Below, piece after piece: positions 2,711-19,888 of a stretch of DNA of 20,000 bases. Under the pieces are notes generated by a model. It was given only the letters and a program-made list of their open reading frames with translations, was not told where the DNA came from and did no database searches. The position numbers and the translations under genes are program-made. Location of the stretch: contig BCKZ01000011.1 of assembly GCA_001600815.1 (NCBI GenBank), positions 751,231 to 771,230 on the forward strand, written 5' to 3'. The DNA comes from Alloascoidea hylecoeti (Eukaryota). Position 1 is the first letter of the stretch. Each line of letters opens with the position of its first letter.

Positions 2711-5700
2711 CTATTCAAACTTTGTATAATGACGCCGTCTTTTTTCTGGCCCTGAAGTATCAACAATATTATCAGTACGCTGGTGCTTTCTTTGATTATC
2801 ATTCCGATTATCATTTCTATTCACTCGGGAACGGATACCAAATCTGTCTCTATCCTTAGTATCGCGCATCCTGTTGTCTCTATCTCGGTCGCGGTTTCTG
2901 TCACGGTCTCTATCTCGTTCTCGGATATCTCGCTCTCTTCTTTCATTAGTGCGTTCGCGGTTTCGTTCATTTCTTTCTCTTTCACGTTCCCTATCCCCTC
3001 GTCTATCAACACGATCTCTCCTATCTCTTAACTGGTTGTCACGCGCATTTCTCACAGAATCGGGTGTATTTCGTTTCGGTGGTTGTGAATCTCGTCTTCC
3101 AGGGTTCCTGGGATTTTGGTCTACTTTTCCGTCCTTTGGATCTTCTTCATTTGCCCTTTCACTCGCTGTTGGCGACGATTTGCTTATTTTACTGTCAATA
3201 CTAGCACTTCTAGAAATGGGCACAACATTTCGTGCTCCTATACGATCCGTAAAATTATCGTTAATGCGTTTTGTATTATTGGGTCTGATATCTGCAGACT
3301 TATCTTTGGATGCTCTATCTATTCCCCCTCTTACTGATGATGATGATCTAGACTGATTGATTGAAGAACGGTTATCTAAGTTTGATTTAGAAACATCTCT
3401 TGGTTTAGAATCCCTTTCGTAGTTATTTATCTTAACATTGCGTAGTCTAGCATCGAGACCTTTAACTTCAATTAAATTAGCCGATGTTGCAGAAGCCGTG
3501 TTACGTTTATCCATTTCTCTAACTCGATTATCATCCCGTCTTCCATTTCTTCGATCATCATTATCATTTCTAATTCTTGGACCAGATGGCGGAGGAAGTC
3601 CATTGCTGTTAAGCTTATTAGAACCACGATTGTATCCATCACGATGATTATCTCTATCAACATCCCTAGAATTGAATCGATCCAATTCTTTGTTGAATGT
3701 GCTATCACCAAAGCCATCCCTAGTTTTAACTGATTCCCTTGTTCGTGAATTCCCTTTTACATGATCAATACCATTTTCTCTTTCATTATTTCGAACAAAA
3801 TCCCGAGGTCTGTCTTTGGATATATCTCTTGGGGAGTTCTTTGGACTATTTCTTTGGCTATTATCCTTTAATCGGTCCATCTTATTTTCCCGTGATGAAA
3901 TCGGGTCGTCCAACTCGTCCTTGACTATTCCCTGGCGTTCTGATTTATCATCACTGTCTTTACCGTTAGATGGAATTTTTGGGAGAGAAATTGGAGTCTT
4001 CCCCCCACTAAAAGATCTAGGTTGTGTTGGAACCTGAGAACTCTTGATATCACTCTTGGGTTGTGAAAGCGTAGATTTCACTTCTGAAATGTTTGTATCC
4101 TTAGACTTTTCGAGTGCAGATTTGTTCTTCTCCAGTGTTGCTAGGGAAGGTTTGAGTAGAGTAGCACTTGCTACCTTTTTTCCAGGGTTCTTCCTGGATT
4201 CACGAGCAGCCACTCTTTTCCTTTTTTCTGCTATTAGTTTTTCCTTTTGATCAGAAGTAGTGCCATAAAAGTCCCATAGGTCAATCCAGTCTTTCGAAGA
4301 GCGTTGAAGATGCCCTCTGAGCGCTGTGGCAGACAGTTTTAGATCTTCTCTTTTTTCTTTCTCTGCGATATTCTCAATTTCATCCAATATCTCATAACCA
4401 TGATACTCTGCTATAGGGAATACGGATATCATATTCTTTAAGACTGTAATAGCATTTCGTCTAGACATATAGTTATCACTTTGCAAGGAGCCTTTAATGT
4501 CAATCATTGTCTTTTTGTGCCATTTTTCAAGAACTCTTCTAAATTCTTCATATGAGGCCAAACTTTCATTTTCTGGTTTGTTATTAAACTTGATTCTCAT
4601 TCCAGGTAAAGTGGGCTTCGCACCATCCATTTTCCCTAATGCAACAAGGTTGTAAAGATTTTCATTTTTACGCCACTTATCAAACTCTGAAAAGATATCA
4701 CAAAAGAACAAACCGATATTTTCAGCTTCAAGTGTTGAACACGTTAACAAAGTACCATATAAAATATTTTTTGCAAACAGATTATCTAACAATAAAACAG
4801 TCGGAATAGTCGATCCAAGACGATGTAAAGTAAATATGAACTTGGAACAGAATATTGCATCTAAAGGGGAGTGCAAAGCACGAGGTAAAACACAAGTATT
4901 TATAAATTCAAAAACCTGATGATATCTATCGCTCATTGCTTTTTGTGGGTCATCATTTGCATTATCGGAAATATAAAAATGTTTGACTTCTACCAGTAAT
5001 CTTTTCATAATTGCCTTATGATGATTCAGATGTGCAATCTTTTCTCCTTCGAGTTGAGATGTCATTGAAGATAATTCGTCTCTTTCCGATTTAAGTTGTC
5101 GAATAGCCGAAGATCCTTCTCGTGAATTATCACCTCGAGAGATAGAGACACTAAGTGATGAAATTGTTTCTCTTAATTTCTTCTCTTCTGAAAAATATTT
5201 TTCAGAAGAAAAAAATATATCATAAAGCGAGAGCTGCCAGAAAGTAACATAAAATCCAATGTCCAGGTACTTAATTCCAGATTCCCCAAAAAAGGTTGAC
5301 AACTCCGACATAACAGGTACTAGTACAGGGTGCCATGGTGATATTTGTGCTTCTTCCTTATTACTATCTGGTTGAGACGATAAATCTATAACCACGCTGT
5401 CCTTGATTGTAGGTTGTTCTAGTGCTTTTACATCTTTAATTGGGCGATGGGTTTCGTCATATTCAATCATTTTAACTTGCATCATCTTTCTCCATAGTTC
5501 GAAGGCCCACTTAGGTTTAATGCCATATTTTGTGCAAAGTTCAGTAACAGAAATGACATGATTTTGAAAGGCTTCAGTAGGAAGAAAGTAATTTATCATG
5601 TCGATGAACTGATGAAGTACAGACGAGGCATCATCATATCGGCTTGATAAAACCTTCAAATGTGCTTCTGAGTCTGAGATTGTGAATACAATATTTTCCG

Positions 5701-8391
5701 TCAACTGAGCTAGTAGAACAAAAAGTTCGGCTAGAATGTTGTTATTAACCATCACATCCAAAAGACGTTTTGCAGATCTATTGGACATTTCTCGGTTATC
5801 TTGAATAACTTTATAGACTATTTTTTGTAATTTTGCACTACCCCCAAGGCCTTCAATTTGAGGTATGGTTAAATTAGAAATTTTCTTGATGCCAGACATT
5901 TGTTCAATGATTTCACCAAACAAAGAGGTTTCACCACTCTCTCTGTTGTGTAACTGTTTTATGATGTATAATAAAATTGGTGTGGAATCCATAACTGAAT
6001 ATCTTTGGCATAATTTTGCAGTAAATGAAGAGAGCGCTATAAATAAGATAAGATAGTTAGTTCCTAAAGCTGAAAGGGAATTGAATATTAATTTTACTTA
6101 CATTTCAACCAAATACGGTCATTCAAGCCATCTCGTTGTACAGTCCCTCTCCCAGAAGTCAGTTGCATCATAATCACAATTGGTAAAGCATCCCAACTAA
6201 GGTCTGTAAAATACCTTGCAGCATCAACAACTAAAGCACCCAAGTTATCATAACTTTCCACTTGACCAATAAAGGCTGTAAAAGTGGCTAAAGGATTTGC
6301 ATGTGAGATTTTAGCTAATCTCCTCATCATTTCTCGATCATTAGTTTTTGAGAGTCTTTTCATAACACCTTTAGTTGCCTTTTCTGATTTTAGACTAGCA
6401 ATTTTCAATTCAAGAATTGTTTTATTTATTGACAACCATTCTCCATATAAACTGTATCTCGTCTCAAATGAGAAAAGCTTGATGAGTTTAAATATCTCAT
6501 TAATTACTGATGGATTTTCTTCAATTAATGATACTGAAGGATGAATAAAATTTCTAAAATATTGGTACCAGAATTCAACCTTTTCAACGTTTTTCGTTGC
6601 TTGTAGACTATTGACACCAATTCTACAAAGTTTCACCAATAATATCAAATCTCTATATAATCTCGGGCCAGAAAATCGCAAAAACGCTGCAGATAATTCT
6701 TGTAAATCTTCTATAGTTGAGATCGGCTTTAATTCAGATGTCCAGTCATCATAAAAGAAACGATGAGTTACACCAGCTTCAGTAGGCGTTTTTAATGGTG
6801 TCAAAACTCTCCGATGACTTTTTTGTTTCGGAGGTACCAAAGTTGTGGTTTTATTAATAGATGAGGGTAAGTTGAGTGGAGTTGAAATATTTCCTTGTCT
6901 TTTAAAAGGTCTGATTTCTTCATAAAGAGGAGTGATACAATGATTGATTATTCTGTGAATCAAGTCTGCAATTTCTGGATCTGGACCAGGCAAGAATGGA
7001 AATTTTGATAAAAGAAATAAAGAGGGCCATATAGCACCAACGGCAAGTAAAGCTTTCAGTAATTGAACCTTCTGGTTCTTGGCCAATTCTTTTCCGGAAG
7101 AAAGAATAGTCGGTTCTTCCTTTTTCTGTTCGGTTTGTGTTGAAGAACGTGATTGAGAATCTTTCGACGAAGGAGCAGAATCGTCAGCCAAAGGGGCGGC
7201 CATAGCTAATGCAGAAGAACGGGCCATAAGTGCTTTATTTTCCATTTCTTCCCGCCAACTTTTGTTGATTTCATTCATTATTTCATCTGATGGTGATAAA
7301 TAATGATATATCTCACCAAAACTAATAAATTTTTCTTTTATCAGAACAGCTATCATAACCATTAAATTTTCTGGGGCAGCTTCGTTCTTGTCAGCATAAA
7401 ACTTGAGCTTGAACCCAAGCAATTTTGCAGCAGATGTGTTTCCACCAGGTTTACCAAGATCGTTAAGAGAAGTAGGTGAAGCCAGTTTCAATGGCCACCA
7501 TGGTGATTTTTTCAAGACATTTAAAAAGAATTGAGAATTTGCTACTATATTTATTGAAAAAATGTCAAGAAAAATATCTAAGGAACGAATTGGATCCAAG
7601 TCGAAAAACCCAATCAAAGAAATAATCGCCTCAGAAGTGGATGCTATTTTTGACATATTATTAGGCGAATAAGAGGCAGAATGAATTTCAACTATAAATC
7701 GGGCATAACCTTCTGATTCTTCTCTTGGTAAGTTAAATCGAATCTGAAGGTACTGTAATGTTGTATTTGTTTTAACTACTTTTTTTTCAAACAAAGCAGT
7801 CACTACATTTAGTTTTACTAGAGTTTTTGGATCAAGTTGTACTAGCATTAAGGATTTATCAAGTGGGACTTGCTTCATCAGAGAGATAAGATCGTCTGTT
7901 AAGTCAAATGTTGAGAAAATCTCTAAGAAAAGAGATAAAAGTTCATTTGTTCGTGTAGAATAAAGTTTTGCGGTATTTGTGAAAAATTGTGAGAGCAAAT
8001 CAGCGAGTATGGGTATACTTATTCGATTCAAATTGCAAGCTTGAAATATTTCGTAAAAAAAAGTAGATAGAGCAACCACATCGAACGGCTGAACCAGTTT
8101 CGTAACATCATCCAGACTGAACGCGGTGTTGATCCTGTTAAAATTTGTTCTTTCCGTTTTTCATTCATTTACTGTTGTTTCGCAGCTAACGACGCCAAAA
8201 TCCAAGAGAAATACATACATGTTGGGGTCTTGTGTTGAGCACCAGGCTTCCAGAAAGTCATCTGACAGGTAACACCATTCTGGGCCATCATCAGAAATGA
8301 GACTCAATGGTGTCACCGTGAGGTGATGGCTGGACACGGGGGCTGCGCCCATTTCTGGGCTCTGCGGGGTGTTTTCAAATACAGCAGCCAT
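2711..8391 (-). CDS. THO2: THO complex subunit 2, about 1843 aa, 3 exons: 8391-8219, 8134-6102, 6036-2711
   Basis: Intron 8218-8135 (GTATGT...TTAACAG) and intron 6101-6037 (GTAAGT...ACTAAC...ATAG) join three ORFs in frame, with junctions DPNM-INTAF and WLKS-LSSF. Tho2 motifs: FNLPREESEGYA, LIGFFDLDPIRSLD, QVESYDNL, FYVTFWQLSLYDI, YMSRRNAITVL. Confidence 0.93.
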
Positions 8392-16784: not shown

Positions 16785-17205
16785 TCCACCTATTAGCGCT
16801 CTCTTCGAAAATGATTAGCGTCGCATTTGGTAATTAATTAGTGCTATTTTCGTAAATTAATTACCTTCTCTTTGGTGAATAATTGAAATTATTTTCCATA
16901 ATTAATTAATGGTATTTCAGGTAATTATTTGATGCTTCCCGGGAGAATTTGGAAGCACTATGTGTGACAATTAATTGGTCACAAGTTGGCGTTAAATTTG
17001 AAAATTATTTATCTATTATGTTGAAAATTAACTGGCGCCATTTTTTGAAATTACTTAGCGATCGGGTGTGAATCAATAATTAGTCACCTCTCCAGATATT
17101 AACTGGTGCTGTGTGTGAATAATAACTAGCTATTTTGCTGAAATGTATTTAACGTTATGTATGGCAAGTAGTTAGCGTCTAGTGAGGGAGCTAATTAGCC
17201 AACCC
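16785..17205 (+). repeat. Second degenerate tandem array with ~23-bp period (core AATTAAYTRGYG)
   Basis: The YTRG-type core recurs at 16793, 16815, 16838, 16861, then 17032, 17055, 17080, 17103, 17126, 17149, 17172 and 17195, mostly 22-23 bp apart. Confidence 0.7.
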
Positions 17206-18061
17206 CCAGGTAAATAGGTATAGGAGACTGACAATAATAATCGGTAAACCTAATAGAATAAAATGATGAAATTATTATATAGATATTATAAATTATATTA
17301 TAAGATTATAGTTGTATATACTTAAAATTAATATAAATAGAGACTAAATCCACCATTGGATTTAGTTCTCTACCCTTTTTATCTTACACTCATCTTACAA
17401 TTATATTTACTAATAAGCGTAAAAGTTTAATAGATTTCCAATCTTTTTAGCCTTAAAACAAATATTAGCTAAATACCAACATCTTTTTACACTTATTAAA
17501 ACTTACCAACTTTCACTACAAAAACTTACCGATCTTTACTACTAAAATTGGCCGAATAAACTTCAGGTTTTAAGGATGAATATAATAAAGATGACCCCGT
17601 TGTGTCTTTGAATCAATTGAAAGACTTTGACATCCCTTACGATGCCTTGAAATCATTCAAAGACACGATGGTCAAAACTGCTTCTAAATAAAAACATGGT
17701 TACTTCTTCCCGGCATTCAAGGCTTATCTCATTGGTAAACTAAAATCACAGTTTAATCTAGACCCATCCGATATCAATAAATTGGATGAGCATATATGTA
17801 CAAACTCAATGATCAATCTCATGTACCTAATTATTTCTGCACTTTTATTGAAATTATTATTAATGACAAATTTGATCAAAGCGTTTGTGAAGACTTCGAC
17901 CCGGATTTTAATGGAATCAATATGTGTCATTACCTTGTTGAAAATTATGGAGAAGATAAATTGCCTGTTTTAGAAAGACAATCAATCTTGAAACAACTCT
18001 TAAACAACGTATTATAGAAAGGCTATAATTTTACTGAATTTGAAGAATATACAATGATTCT

Positions 18062-18453
18062 TGTTAAAGTTCAAAGTGCCTGTTCTCCTAGTTGCGCCAA
18101 AAAGCCAATCGACTTTTTAGTGAACTGTTCCAAGAGTGTAATATATCCAACACACCCCCCAACCTTAGGCAGGTCACTTTACTAATCGCCATATCTGCTC
18201 ACCCCCGTGATTTTTCGGGTTTCGGACTTCTTGCAGACTGACTCGGACATTTTACTTTCGGGCCATTTACGCGTTACCCTAGTAAGCCTCAACTAGACTG
18301 ATGTAAACTACTGTCCTACGGCGGACTCGAACCTGATGCCTCTCGTGGCGGCGCCGCTACCATGTTAAATTTCAAAGTGCCTGTTCTCCCAGTTGCGCCA
18401 AAAAGCCAATCGACTCTTTAGTGAACTGTTCCAAGAGTGTAATATATCCAACA
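18062..18453 (-). mobile_element. Terminal-repeat retrotransposon in miniature (TRIM), 392 bp, non-coding
   Basis: Two 91-bp direct repeats (18062-18152 and 18363-18453, 3 mismatches) with TGTT...AACA ends. Target-site duplication ATTCT at 18057-18061 and 18454-18458. On the minus strand, the PBS TGGTAGCG (18362-18355) abuts the 5' LTR and the PPT GGGGGGTG (18160-18153) abuts the 3' LTR. Confidence 0.95.
18323..18400 (-). promoter_or_regulatory. Putative type-2 RNA polymerase III promoter within the TRIM
   Basis: A-box match TGGCGCAACTGG (18400-18389) and B-box match GGTTCGAGTCC (18333-18323), on the same strand and 55 nt apart. Confidence 0.6.
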
Positions 18454-19312
18454 ATTCTTAAAACGTACATCGCAGGCTTTAAACAAATGTTACCATATCT
18501 AATTACCATGAAAATCAATGATCAACAACTGTATCAAACATTAGAAGAATTGGAAGGCGGTAATGATAACAAAACATTTATTGAACTTGAACATAAGAAA
18601 ATCATCAAGCAACATAAATTCTTTGACAAATTACACGAATCTGAACACGTCAACTATATCAAAAATAATCAGGCTAACAATAATAATTCTTATAATCATT
18701 CTTCTTATCACAATGACAGCAATAACTTTGACAAAAAGGTCAAATGTTACATCTGCAGACGATTTGGTCATCTAGGCCCAGACTGTCCAAAGTACGACCC
18801 TGCCAAGGATTAGAAGAACTACGATAAGGTACAATATATAGAACTTCCTCTCAACACAACTGTTTACACCGAGACCATTCAAGATACTTCAGCACCTTCA
18901 GAAGAAATTTTCTACACCTCTGAAACAGCCTTTATTCATGACTTAGGAAATTTTTGTCACTTAGTCAAAGATTCATCATTATTAACTAATTTACAACAAT
19001 CTTCTACAACTGTCAAAGGAATTGATAATACTCCCACTAAGGTAATGGAAGGTGATTTGAAGATCGACAACTTAGTATTTCATAATGTTAAAGTATTTCC
19101 TAAAGCCGATCGTGATATTAATTTAGGCCATCTATTAGCCAAACAAGGATATCATATCAATTTAACAAATGACAACGCTACAATTATTAAAGATAATGAC
19201 ATTATTTTGCACGCTGAGAAAAACGAGCGTTTTTGGAAACTCACCCCTAAGGACTTTCGCCAGGAGACGGTTTTACAAATTGACAAATTAGATGACACTG
19301 ACATAATGAGGT

Positions 19313-19728
19313 TACACATATGCCCGTCAAGTTTGTTTGATTCAGATGGATCTAAATTGAATTGTGACTTGAGTTTGTCTTGAACGCTGGGAAGAAGTAA
19401 CCATGTGTGTATGTTTGGAAGCGGATTTGACCATCGTATATTTGAAAGATTTTAAGGCATCTTAAAGGATGTCAAAGTCTTTCAATTGGTTTAAAGACAC
19501 AAATGGGTAGTTTTTGCTATATTCATGGTTTCGAACCTGAAGTTGAATCGGCCATATTTTGTAGTGAAAGTTGGTAAGTTTTAATAAGTGTAAAAAGATG
19601 TGGGTATTTAGCTAATATTTGTTTTAAGGCTAAAAAGATTGGAAATCTATTAAACTTTTACGCTTATTAGTAAATATAATTGTAAGATGAGTGCAGGATA
19701 AAAAGGATGGAGAACTAAATCCAATGGT
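19313..19728 (-). mobile_element. Second, inverted fragment of the same copia family (leader plus start of gag)
   Basis: Its reverse complement aligns with 17352-17800. It retains ATGGCCGAT where the first copy has TTGGCCGAA. Confidence 0.9.
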
Positions 19729-19754
19729 ATTAATTTTGTAAATTTTTCACTTTT

Positions 19755-19888
19755 AGTAGTAAGAGATGATGATAAGATAAACAGGATAGAGATCTAAATC
19801 CTGAGGAGGATTTAGTCCCTTTTATATTCATTTTTCTTATATATCTATATAGTTTATTTATNTTATTGTTGAATATTATTTTTTAACA
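19755..19888 (-). mobile_element. Third, more diverged LTR-like fragment of the same family; boundaries approximate
   Basis: The minus strand reads AATATAAAAGGGACTAAATCCTCCTCAGGATTTAGATCTCTATCCTGTTTATCTTA, similar to 17330-17386 (AATATAAATAGAGACTAAATCCACCATTGGATTTAGTTCTCTACCCTTTTTATCTTA). Confidence 0.65.

What the first reader, a model, noticed from the sequence alone, without database searches (positions are those of the whole stretch)
18323..18447. TRIM may be RNA polymerase III-driven: A box in the LTR, B box in the internal domain
Seen on the element's sense (minus) strand: GATATATTAC near the LTR start, then TGGCGCAACTGG (18400-18389, fits the 12-nt A-box consensus TRGYNNARYNGG), then GGTTCGAGTCC (18333-18323, a canonical B box) 55 nt later. 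The B box lies outside the LTR, so a complete promoter forms only at the 5' LTR. The 3' LTR A box reads TGGCGCAACTAG. The interior has no sense-strand run of 4 or more T, although the opposite strand has such runs. The only such run is a T5 in each LTR, overlapping the start of the A box. Known: tRNA-type promoters are A+B boxes bound by TFIIIC, Pol III stops at oligo-T, and plant Cassandra TRIMs carry 5S-type Pol III elements in their LTRs. Inference: a SINE/LTR hybrid whose ~300-nt RNA starts about 15-20 nt upstream of the A box and may end at the T5 of the 3' LTR, leaving a very short R region. Caveat: the T5 in the 5' LTR would have to be read through.
Basis: partly seen in the sequence, partly recalled or inferred. 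Interest (0 to 1): 0.85.

Follow-up and report, generated by a model that had tools for sequence, protein, structure and literature searches.

The report
Mini retrotransposon with tRNA-type promoter boxes
A 392-base, gene-less LTR retrotransposon in a fungal genome carries the two sequence boxes of a tRNA-gene promoter, one in its repeat and one just inside it, so it may be copied by RNA polymerase III, but no RNA data exist to show this.

Summary
On the minus strand, 18062-18453 is a complete 392-bp TRIM. It has 91-nt LTRs (88 of 91 identical, TG..CA ends), a 5-bp target duplication, a PBS abutting the 5' LTR that starts like the antisense of initiator tRNA-Met, and a polypurine tract. It sits inside a gag-like ORF of another retroelement.

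A perfect A box (18400-18389) lies in the LTR. A perfect B box (18333-18323) lies 55 nt further on, beyond the PBS. The only runs of four or more T on the sense strand are one T5 per LTR. About 5e-6 such box pairs are expected by chance per element.

The lack of internal T runs is not unusual: 46-59% of shuffles show it. No tRNA fold is detectable. Conservation cannot be tested, because about 28 copies share one identical 156-nt stretch.

No RNA run, genome or related locus could be reached, so Pol III transcription stays an inference (about 0.45). Pol III-type TRIMs are already described (TRIMp3: Cassandra, Helenus, Ajax; Kojima 2024). New here would be a promoter split across the LTR/PBS boundary, and a host that looks like an intron-poor yeast. 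I call it a new variant of a known kind.

The parts
18454..18458 (.). Target-site duplication, copy next to the 5' LTR (ATTCT on +, AGAAT on -)
   Evidence: identical 5-mers flank the element.
18363..18453 (-). 5' LTR, 91 nt, TG..CA ends
   Evidence: family D1, 97%; 88 of 91 positions identical to the 3' LTR.
18439..18448 (-). TATA-like GATATATTAC, LTR positions 6-15. It lies about 22-27 nt upstream of the start site predicted from the A box.
   Evidence: An (AT) length variant is seen in 2-4 contigs per run (table 4, laid at the 3' LTR place 18140).
18400..18404 (-). T5 run in the 5' LTR (LTR positions 50-54). Its last T is the first letter of the A box. In the model this weak Pol III terminator must be read through.
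18389..18400 (-). A box TGGCGCAACTGG. In tRNA numbering it fits T8 R9 G10 Y11 A14 R15 G18 G19, followed by G20 A21.
   Evidence: the only match in the window; no other letter at 5% or more of the depth at these places.
18350..18362 (-). Primer-binding site TGGTAGCGGCGCC, directly abutting the LTR. Its first 8 nt equal the antisense of the 3' end of S. cerevisiae initiator tRNA-Met.
   Evidence: compared by eye with the probe printed in PMC11791190 and the tRNA template printed in PMC7957392.
18323..18333 (-). B box GGTTCGAGTCC, internal-domain positions 30-40, 55 nt downstream of the A box.
   Evidence: Unchanged in the main unitig (about 28 copies) and in the one diverged contig (records 3 and 4).
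18153..18362 (-). Internal domain, 210 nt, non-coding.
   Evidence: no frame of note in the sense strand; 0 Rfam matches at E up to 10.
18153..18166 (-). Polypurine tract AAGGTTGGGGGGTG, abutting the 3' LTR.
18062..18152 (-). 3' LTR, 91 nt. Its A-box place (18099-18088) reads TGGCGCAACTAG, which misses the pattern. Its T5 is at 18103-18099, the proposed transcript end.
18057..18061 (.). Target-site duplication, copy next to the 3' LTR.
17790..18813 (+). Host of the insertion: a degenerate gag-like ORF of another retroelement with a CCHC zinc knuckle, interrupted by the TRIM.
   Evidence: zf-CCHC, E about 3e-4; removing the TRIM plus one TSD copy in silico gives one open frame from 18018 to 18813.

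Best explanation
The element is a member of a recently amplified family of 392-bp non-autonomous LTR retrotransposons (TRIM). A Ty1/copia-type element supplies the proteins that move it. This is inferred from the 5-bp target duplication, the PBS matching the 3' end of initiator tRNA-Met, and the TG..CA ends.

Its sense strand carries the two internal control boxes of a tRNA-type (type 2) RNA polymerase III promoter. The A box is in the U5-side part of the LTR. The B box is 55 nt downstream, behind the PBS.

Proposed mechanism (inferred, not shown):
1. TFIIIC binds the B and A boxes of the 5' LTR plus leader.
2. TFIIIB is placed over the TATA-like AT-rich stretch at LTR positions 6-15.
3. Pol III starts near LTR position 35 (about 18415-18420).
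4. It partly reads through the weak T5 at +16 to +20 and transcribes the 210-nt interior, which has no T4 or longer run.
5. It stops at the same T5 in the 3' LTR.

The product would be an RNA of about 320 nt with an R region of about 20 nt. A partner element's proteins would reverse-transcribe it from a tRNA-iMet primer. Solo LTRs and 3' LTRs have an A box but no B box, so they would be inert. In Kojima's terms the element would be a TRIMp3 whose promoter is split by the LTR/PBS junction.
For: Anatomy of a complete TRIM is shown.

Both boxes match perfectly, in sense orientation, in the right order, with a 55-nt gap. The joint chance expectation is 4.9e-6 per element.

The boxes fit the conserved tRNA positions, while the surrounding tRNA stems are not kept:
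- Rfam gives 0 hits at E up to 10.
- ARAGORN gives 0 calls down to the 80% threshold.
This is the pattern expected if the promoter rather than the tRNA is what matters. Kojima argues the same for Helenus and Ajax (PMC10886601, Results and Discussion read).

The family consensus keeps both boxes. The main unitig over 18222-18377 has depth 1537.7 against about 55 for single-copy flank in X1. No variant reaches 5% at the A-box places.

The AT-rich stretch lies about 22-27 nt upstream of the start predicted from the A box (positions; the start rule is recalled).

A T5 gives only intermediate release by S. cerevisiae Pol III, and T6 is needed for efficient release (passages). The same signal could therefore be passed in the 5' LTR and used in the 3' LTR.

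The Pol III-driven TRIM class already exists: Cassandra (PMC7215508 passages), and Helenus and Ajax (PMC10886601).
Against: - There is no RNA evidence of any kind.
- A T5 only about 15-20 nt after the predicted start would abort part of the transcripts.
- The absence of T runs inside is not significant.
- No conservation signal can be extracted. The copies are nearly identical. The one diverged contig has 5 private changes in 18286-18362 and none in the 11-nt B box, which chance gives about 46% of the time (my arithmetic).
- LTR depth is far above internal-domain depth in X1: about 39,000-45,000 at 18370 and 18418, against about 1,600. The PPT-side 40 nt of the interior is 4-5 times deeper than the B-box side in all three runs. 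Other elements, possibly an autonomous Pol II-driven one, may therefore share this LTR without this leader. If so, the LTR must also work with Pol II.
- The LTR carries a TATA-like stretch and AT-rich signals that could serve Pol II start and polyadenylation.
- A tRNA-like fold appears only at ARAGORN's noise level: 5 calls in 521 nt, against a mean of 2.9 in 30 shuffles.
Confidence: 0.45

Rival explanations
1. This is a conventional Pol II-driven TRIM. Transcription starts downstream of the TATA-like stretch in the 5' LTR and ends at an AT-rich polyadenylation signal in the 3' LTR, or the element is read through from outside. The A and B boxes would be a non-functional relic of a captured tRNA or SINE-like piece, or a rare coincidence.
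For: - The TATA-like GATATATTAC lies at LTR positions 6-15.
- LTR copies greatly outnumber this internal domain. The PPT-side of the interior is 4-5 times deeper than the B-box side. This hints at sister or autonomous elements that use the same LTR with another leader; an autonomous one must be Pol II-transcribed (argument in PMC10886601 Discussion).
- A T5 sits between the predicted Pol III start and the A box.
- No tRNA fold is detectable.
- Most described TRIMs are not Pol III elements (recalled).
Against: - The box pair is expected 4.9e-6 times per element by chance.
- A decaying relic should lose box letters as it lost the stems. Yet all specified letters of both boxes match while the stems are broken.
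- No partner element with this LTR was actually seen.
Confidence: 0.35
2. The boxes bind TFIIIC, with or without Pol III, but do not produce the RNA that is reverse-transcribed. They would act as an extra-TFIIIC-type site: a chromatin boundary that keeps copies from being silenced, or a landmark that attracts integration of Pol III-targeting elements.
For: - The B box is perfect.
- A second B-box-like motif lies in the leader of the neighbouring retroelement copy (19527-19537), inside a nest of retroelement fragments.
- Targeting of Pol III genes by yeast LTR elements is well known (listing of PMC5911963; otherwise recalled).
Against: - A matching A box at the right distance and a start-site geometry inside the LTR are not needed for a TFIIIC-only site.
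- The second motif is not kept in the paralogous copy at about 17566-17576.
- No tRNA gene lies in the 20 kb.
Confidence: 0.1
3. The B-box-like stretch belongs to an extended primer interaction, or is left from read-through copying of the tRNA primer. The leader would be complementary to further parts of initiator tRNA-Met, as in the bipartite or extended PBS of Ty1 and Ty3. Alternatively, the element primes itself from its own LTR.
For: - The PBS is of the initiator tRNA-Met type.
- By eye, GAGG-CATCAGG in the leader resembles the antisense of the variable-loop region of the yeast tRNA (alignment).
Against: - Local alignment of the 34-nt antisense tRNA-iMet oligo printed in PMC11230868 to the element scores 18. 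264 of 2000 shuffled oligos score as high, and unrelated parts of the window score 20 and 23.
- Only the S. cerevisiae tRNA was available as a stand-in.
- No LTR-PBS complementarity of 8 nt or more exists. The single inverted pair found is a palindrome inside the PBS.
Confidence: 0.05

Closest known systems
Helenus (TRIMp3 with a tRNA-derived sequence in the LTRs; Kojima 2024, PMC10886601; Abstract, Results, Discussion, figure legends and Tables 1-2 read)
   Same: - Tiny non-coding LTR element with PBS and PPT.
- A and B box motifs of a tRNA-type promoter on the sense strand.
[quoted passage not shown]
- The tRNA part is generally not a functional tRNA.
- Pol III transcription is inferred, not shown.
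   Different: - In Helenus the whole tRNA-like piece, with both boxes, lies inside the LTR, so every LTR carries a full promoter. Here the B box is outside the LTR, behind the PBS.
- No tRNA similarity beyond the boxes is detectable here.
- At 392 bp the element is within the paper's stated length range for Helenus (311-1263 bp). Its 91-bp LTR is shorter than the only short LTR length quoted in the parts I read (120 bp); Table S1 was not opened.
- Fungal Helenus is reported only from Basidiomycota (Pucciniales and a few Agaricomycetes). This host looks like an intron-poor yeast.
Cassandra (plant TRIM with 5S rRNA-derived Pol III promoter and terminator in the LTRs; PMC7215508 passages, PMC10886601)
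   Same: TRIM architecture, PBS for initiator tRNA-Met, and an internal Pol III promoter proposed to drive the element.
   Different: Cassandra has a type 1 (5S: box A, IE, box C) promoter lying wholly within the LTR, and occurs in plants and ferns. No 5S similarity is found here.
tRNA-derived SINEs (SINE2)
   Same: Short, non-coding, with an internal A+B box promoter, ending at an oligo-T. The copy carries its own promoter wherever it lands.
   Different: SINEs have no LTRs, PBS or PPT, and are moved by LINE target-primed reverse transcription. This element has the full LTR-retrotransposon cis kit and a 5-bp TSD.
Ty1/copia elements of budding yeasts (Ty1 PBS and LTR ends; recalled, except the tRNA sequence)
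   Same: PBS beginning TGGTAGCG directly after the LTR, an LTR starting TGTTGG and ending CA, and a 5-bp TSD.
   Different: Ty1 is 5.9 kb, coding, Pol II-transcribed, with LTRs of about 330 bp (recalled).
S. cerevisiae SNR6 (U6) promoter layout (recalled)
   Same: An upstream TATA-like element combined with an intragenic A box and a more distant downstream B box.
   Different: In SNR6 the B box lies beyond the terminator, and the gene is not mobile.

Membership tests
TRIM (terminal-repeat retrotransposon in miniature) | Two short direct terminal repeats with TG..CA ends | tested here: met
   91-nt LTRs with 88 of 91 positions identical, starting TGTTGG and ending AACA.
TRIM (terminal-repeat retrotransposon in miniature) | Target-site duplication flanking the element | tested here: met
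   A 5-bp duplication, ATTCT on the + strand, at 18057-18061 and 18454-18458. Virtual excision restores the host frame.
TRIM (terminal-repeat retrotransposon in miniature) | PBS next to the 5' LTR and PPT next to the 3' LTR | tested here: met
   TGGTAGCGGCGCC abuts the 5' LTR. Its first 8 nt equal the antisense of the 3' end of S. cerevisiae tRNA-iMet. The host's own tRNA was not available. AAGGTTGGGGGGTG abuts the 3' LTR.
TRIM (terminal-repeat retrotransposon in miniature) | No coding capacity, small size, multiple copies | tested here: met
   The 210-nt interior has no ORF of note. Contig depth of the interior is about 29 times the single-copy flank in X1 (1,600 against 55). The tool warns that depth is not an exact copy number.
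Helenus / TRIMp3 (Kojima 2024) | A tRNA-derived sequence lying within the LTRs | tested here: not met
   Only the A box is in the LTR. The B box is at internal-domain positions 30-40. No tRNA is detected by ARAGORN at default, 95% or 80% thresholds or by Rfam at E up to 10.
Helenus / TRIMp3 (Kojima 2024) | Conserved box A (TRGCY ... YGG) and box B (GGTTC) motifs | tested here: met
   TGGCG...TGG matches TRGC and YGG. The fifth letter is G, not Y. GGTTC is present (motif wording).
Helenus / TRIMp3 (Kojima 2024) | Transcription of the element by RNA polymerase III | not testable with these tools
The paper also leaves it untested for Helenus and Ajax.
Type 2 (tRNA-type) Pol III promoter | A box and B box consensus on one strand, A upstream of B, tens of nt apart | tested here: met
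   The gap is 55 nt. The usual 30-60 nt range is recalled.
Type 2 (tRNA-type) Pol III promoter | Oligo-T terminator downstream and no strong terminator inside the unit | tested here: inconclusive
   The only T runs are T5, one 15-20 nt after the predicted start and one in the 3' LTR. T5 is weak to intermediate in S. cerevisiae. The lack of internal T4+ is not unusual.
Type 2 (tRNA-type) Pol III promoter | TFIIIC binding and Pol III occupancy | not testable with these tools
   Needs ChIP or in vitro transcription.
Cassandra | 5S rRNA-derived sequence in the LTR | tested here: not met
   0 Rfam matches at E up to 10 in 18000-18520.
tRNA-derived SINE | No LTRs; LINE-type tail and target-primed insertion | tested here: not met
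   The element has LTRs, PBS, PPT and a 5-bp TSD.

The most novel reading that the evidence does not exclude
This would be a SINE/LTR hybrid in which a tRNA-gene-type Pol III promoter is split by the LTR boundary. The A box sits in U5. The LTR end plus the PBS occupy the place where a tRNA intron would lie; ARAGORN at its noise threshold draws exactly this. The B box sits in the leader.

Only the 5' LTR with its leader is then a Pol III gene. The roughly 700 LTR equivalents without a leader (rough depth ratio) would be silent. A deliberately weak T5 would serve both as a leaky obstacle at the start and as the terminator that defines a 20-nt R region.

It would be the first Pol III-driven LTR element in an ascomycete-type yeast, and the first whose promoter is not contained in the LTR.
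Probability: 0.4. Interest if true: 0.8.

Novelty: new variant of a known kind. Interest (0 to 1): 0.6.

Why it matters
If Pol III does transcribe this element, three things follow.

- LTR retrotransposons could shrink their LTRs to about 90 bp by moving promoter function into the transcribed region, as SINEs do.
- The old problem of telling the 5' LTR from the 3' LTR could be solved by placing half of the promoter outside the repeat.
- The TRIMp3 class (Cassandra, Helenus, Ajax) would extend to a new fungal lineage and a new layout. It would also give a compact yeast system in which Pol III-dependent LTR retrotransposition could be tested genetically.

There is a practical point too. About 30 dispersed perfect B boxes, with A boxes beside them, would be extra TFIIIC and Pol III sites that genome annotation misses, because tRNA finders do not call them.

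If Pol III does not transcribe it, the element is an ordinary, tidy, recently active TRIM.

Tried and rejected
Reaching more sequence of this organism:
- No whole genome is held.
- Exact-pattern scans with a 21-nt interior stretch and a 22-nt LTR stretch found 0 loci in metagenome contigs.
- The 22-nt LTR stretch also found 0 loci in viral contigs and genome contigs.

RNA evidence: no RNA holder was listed. Run X9 (organism B) laid 0 contigs. The tool says neither is evidence of absence.

tRNA origin:
- ARAGORN gave 0 calls on the window, and 0 on 18000-18520 at default, with introns, and at the 95% and 80% thresholds.
- At the 60% threshold it calls a tRNA-Ser(tga)-like shape over 18311-18408(-) with a 15-nt 'intron' that is the LTR end plus the PBS start. 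That setting makes 5 calls in 521 nt, a mean of 2.9 in 30 shuffles, and 65 calls in the window. It is a lead only.
- Rfam gave 0 matches at gathering score and at E up to 10. That also excludes a recognisable 5S, 7SL, snRNA or hammerhead (retrozyme) origin.

Extended-PBS idea: not significant.

Self-priming, a lead from earlier scan notes: no LTR-PBS complementarity of 8 nt or more.

Hairpin-assisted termination. I considered that ACUCUU/AAGAGU (LTR positions 16-21 and 36-41), which is complete only in 3' LTR transcripts, might boost the weak T5 there, given. The fold of LTR positions 1-54 prefers another hairpin and is no better than shuffles: z = +0.70, and 148 of 200 shuffles fold at least as well. 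The putative 321-nt RNA has z = -1.6, with 8 of 100 shuffles as good. No structural support.

Other dead ends:
- The ESM Atlas call on the HEM13 protein gave only bacterial clusters and no help with lineage.
- Pfam on the host-element frames gave only the zinc knuckle, so the host element's superfamily is not assigned.

Literature:
- 'TRIMp3' occurs in 6 held papers, of which only Kojima 2024 concerns transposons.
- A search joining non-autonomous LTR, yeast, A box, B box, TFIIIC and retrotransposon listed 15 of 16 papers, none describing such an element by title or abstract.
- A search joining the TRIM phrase with yeast terms showed the phrase only in a sugar-beet paper among the 15 listed of 1,230.
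- These are listings only, so a report elsewhere is not excluded. Supplementary Table S1 of Kojima 2024 was not opened.
Full report
WHAT IS THERE

Read on the minus strand, 18453-18062 is a complete miniature LTR retrotransposon of 392 bp.
- Two 91-nt LTRs (18453-18363 and 18152-18062) are identical at 88 of 91 positions. They start TGTTGG and end AACA.
- The element is flanked by a 5-bp target-site duplication, ATTCT on the + strand, at 18057-18061 and 18454-18458.
- Directly after the 5' LTR comes TGGTAGCGGCGCC. Its first 8 nt equal the antisense of the 3' end of S. cerevisiae initiator tRNA-Met. I compared it by eye with the northern probe printed in PMC11791190 (passage) and with the tRNA template printed in PMC7957392 (passage).
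- Directly before the 3' LTR lies the polypurine tract AAGGTTGGGGGGTG.
- The 210-nt interior is non-coding.
- The element interrupts a degenerate gag-like frame with a CCHC zinc knuckle on the + strand. Removing the element and one TSD copy in silico gives a single open frame from 18018 to 18813.

The rest of the window carries ordinary eukaryotic genes: C2-domain protein, THOC2, a Rho-type GTPase, coproporphyrinogen oxidase, syntaxin and a DAG-kinase-like protein.
- There are few introns. The one I looked at reads GTAAGT...CTAAC...TAG.
- The best solved relatives of the coproporphyrinogen oxidase are 1tkl and 1txn (489 bits), ahead of 2aex (415 bits). I recall 1tkl and 1txn as the S. cerevisiae enzyme.
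- DNA of the locus is held by three genome-sized runs from two samples of one coded organism and by a wood-decay metagenome. Contigs of the two genome runs I laid (X1, X4) and of the metagenome run X3 lie on the flanks with 0 differences (records 1, 8, 9, 16, 17, 24).
- I therefore treat the host as an intron-poor fungus, probably a yeast. I did not try to name it.

THE OBSERVATION

- The A box TGGCGCAACTGG is at LTR positions 54-65 (18400-18389).
- The B box GGTTCGAGTCC is at internal positions 30-40 (18333-18323), 55 nt further on and outside the LTR.
- The AT-rich GATATATTAC is at LTR positions 6-15.
- The only sense-strand T runs of four or more are one T5 per LTR (positions 50-54), overlapping the first T of the A box.
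- The 3' LTR reads TGGCGCAACTAG.

In tRNA numbering the A box supplies T8, G9, G10, C11, A14, A15, G18 and G19, followed by G20 and A21. The B box supplies G52, G53, T54, T55, C56, G57, A58 and C61, C62. These are the invariant and semi-invariant tRNA letters (recalled).

IS IT MORE THAN CHANCE?

The B-box pattern occurs twice in the 20-kb window against 0.03 expected, and 0 of 200 shuffles reach two.

For an element of this length and composition, an A box 25-80 nt upstream of a B box on the sense strand is expected 4.9e-6 times. As a check, single-motif shuffles gave a B box in 197 and an A box in 6,816 of 200,000. The pair is not a coincidence in any ordinary sense, even allowing for a scan of many windows.

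The 'no internal terminator' argument fails. 59% of mononucleotide shuffles and 46% of dinucleotide shuffles of the 296 nt between the two T5 runs also lack T4 or longer.

THE FAMILY

No genome is held. Four collection scans with element patterns found nothing. The only view of other copies is the laying of assembled contigs of four runs on 17950-18570.

Depths in X1:
- Single-copy flanks have depth about 55.
- The interior 18265-18348 has depth about 1,600. Most of this is one 156-nt unitig (18222-18377, depth 1,537.7).
- That unitig differs from the window copy at 4 places: 18270, 18282, 18312 and 18370.
- Roughly 28 copies therefore share one identical sequence across the PBS, the B box and the LTR edge. 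This points to a recent burst, with the window copy a slightly older member.

One diverged contig (depth 62; 15 other letters and 17 gap letters over 18188-18395) keeps the B box. With 5 private changes in the 77 nt around it, missing an 11-nt box happens about 46% of the time by chance (my arithmetic).

LTR places reach summed depths of about 39,000-45,000 (18370, 18418). That is several hundred LTR equivalents, most with heterogeneous flanks (loose ends at 18362/18363 and 18453, agreement 0.56-0.62). Solo LTRs would look like this. The tool warns that summed depth is not an exact copy number.

No other letter reaches 5% of depth at the 5' LTR A-box places. A few single contigs laid on the 3' LTR carry changes in it (18096, 18097, and a 2-nt loss at 18099).

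Comparison with the bulk shows that G at LTR positions 38 and 64 and C at position 84 are the family letters. The A-box defect of this copy's 3' LTR is therefore private.

IS THERE A tRNA BEHIND THE BOXES?

- ARAGORN finds nothing at default, intron-allowing, 95% or 80% thresholds.
- Rfam finds nothing at gathering score or at E up to 10.
- At ARAGORN's 60% threshold a tRNA-Ser(tga)-like cloverleaf is drawn over 18311-18408(-). Its 15-nt 'intron' is exactly the LTR end plus the PBS start. That setting yields 5 calls in 521 nt, 2.9 on average in shuffles, and 65 calls in the window.

The picture is suggestive, because the LTR/PBS junction sits where a tRNA intron would. It is not evidence. What can be said is that the box letters are all there while the stems are not. 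That is the state Kojima describes for most Helenus and for Ajax, and reads as selection for the promoter rather than for the RNA (PMC10886601).

A RIVAL I TESTED

The leader could be complementary to further parts of the primer tRNA, as in the extended or bipartite PBS of Ty1 and Ty3 (recalled). The quasi-palindromic B box would then be a by-product.
- I aligned the 34-nt antisense tRNA-iMet oligo printed in PMC11230868 to the element. The best local score was 18.
- 264 of 2000 shuffled oligos do as well, and unrelated window sequence scores 20 and 23.
- This gives no support, with the caveat that only the S. cerevisiae tRNA was available.

Self-priming, suggested by earlier notes of this scan on other TRIMs, is also unsupported. 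The only inverted pair of 8 nt or more in 18153-18453 is a palindrome inside the PBS.

HOW IT WOULD WORK

These steps are inferred.
1. TFIIIC on the B and A boxes would place TFIIIB about 30 bp upstream of a start that lies some 18-20 nt before the A box (recalled rule). The start would fall near LTR position 35 (18415-18420), with the AT-rich stretch at about -27 to -22.
2. The T5 then lies at about +16 to +20.
3. In S. cerevisiae five T are the minimal terminator and give intermediate release. Six are needed for efficient release, and RNA structure or Sen1 can help weak sites (passages of bioRxiv 10.1101/2021.08.27.457903).
4. A leaky T5 is what an element needs when the same signal stands in both LTRs: some polymerases pass the first and some stop at the second. 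R would be about 20 nt (positions 35-54).
5. Even read-through of the second T5 would leave an RNA whose 3' part can accept the strong-stop DNA.

I looked for a hairpin present only in 3' LTR transcripts that might make termination asymmetric. The folds give no support.

WHAT SPEAKS AGAINST IT

- There is no RNA evidence. No RNA run was listed.
- The T5 so near the start is a real cost.
- The LTR has a TATA-like stretch and AT-rich signals that could serve Pol II.
- The PPT-side 40 nt of the interior (18160-18201) is 4-5 times deeper than the B-box side in all three runs. One contig per run follows the LTR for only 5 nt of PBS and then departs (loose end at 18358). LTRs outnumber this interior by more than 20 to 1.
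- Other elements may therefore use this LTR with a different leader. If one of them is the autonomous partner, it must be Pol II-transcribed, and the LTR must then work with Pol II. Kojima makes the converse point that TRIMp3 LTRs should not be shared with their partners.

I could not resolve this without the genome.

COMPARISON WITH WHAT IS KNOWN

Pol III-type TRIMs are an established class.
- Cassandra carries a 5S promoter and terminator in the LTR and is transcribed (PMC7215508 passages).
- Helenus carries a tRNA-like sequence with boxes A and B in the LTR. It occurs in fungi, animals and one plant.
- Ajax carries 5S promoter motifs only.
- Kojima groups all three as TRIMp3 (PMC10886601).

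The element does not meet the Helenus definition, because the tRNA-like sequence is not contained in the LTR and no tRNA similarity beyond the boxes is detectable. The reported fungal hosts are Basidiomycota only (Table 1).

What would be new is the split layout, which makes only the 5' LTR plus leader a promoter, and the host lineage. Searches of the held library found no such report (listings only).

VERDICT

- The element is certainly a TRIM, moved by a Ty1/copia-type partner.
- The box pair is real and non-random.
- Pol III transcription is the best single explanation at about 0.45.
- An ordinary Pol II TRIM with relic boxes stands at about 0.35, a TFIIIC-only role at about 0.1, and primer-related explanations at about 0.05.
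- Novelty: a new variant of a known kind. Interest: 0.6.

Noticed in passing
window 19527-19537 (-): A second perfect B-box-type motif, GGTTCGAAACC, lies in the leader of the inverted copy of the gag-bearing host retroelement, just before a possible gag ATG. It shares the 10-mer TCAGGTTCGA with the TRIM leader. The paralogous copy at about 17566-17576 (+) reads CAGGTTTTAAGG instead. No A-box match lies upstream.
   Followed up: partly
window 17336-17721 (+) and 19379-19823 (-): Two 5' parts of one retroelement family face each other; the inverted arms are up to 182 nt long and 95% complementary. Copy 1 runs on through the TRIM insertion into a CCHC gag frame and a further 189-aa frame ending at 19383, where copy 2 begins. 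This is a nest of degenerate retroelements.
   Followed up: partly
window 18160-18201 against 18265-18348: The PPT-side of the TRIM interior is 4-5 times deeper in assembled contigs than the PBS and B-box side in all three runs. This suggests that other elements share the 3' end and LTR but not this leader (table 2).
   Followed up: no
window 18358 (loose end, table 7): In each of X1, X3 and X4, one contig follows the LTR and the first 5 nt of the PBS and then continues with unrelated sequence. It may be a different internal domain, possibly the autonomous partner or a deletion derivative, on the same LTR.
   Followed up: no
window 18384 (loose end, table 7): Contigs in X1 (5) and X3 (4) share LTR positions 1-69, including the A box, but have a different LTR tail (agreement 0.81-0.82). 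This looks like an LTR subfamily.
   Followed up: no
window 18177-18214: A 36-nt deletion variant of the interior is present in one contig of each of the three runs (table 5).
   Followed up: no
window 18140 (3' LTR; equivalent to 18441 in the 5' LTR): An (AT) insertion lengthens the TATA-like stretch of the LTR in 2-4 contigs per run, about a quarter of the depth at that place (table 4).
   Followed up: no
window 5993-6093 (-): The THOC2 gene is split into two long frames (6094-8079 and 2711-5992) by a short intron with GTAAGT, a CTAAC branch site and TAG.
   Followed up: partly
window 16831-17056: Three diverged copies (72-100%) of a 32-nt AT-rich unit lie in the gene-free, AT-rich stretch before the retroelement nest (family D2).
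   Followed up: no
window 19862: The single N of the window.
   Followed up: no
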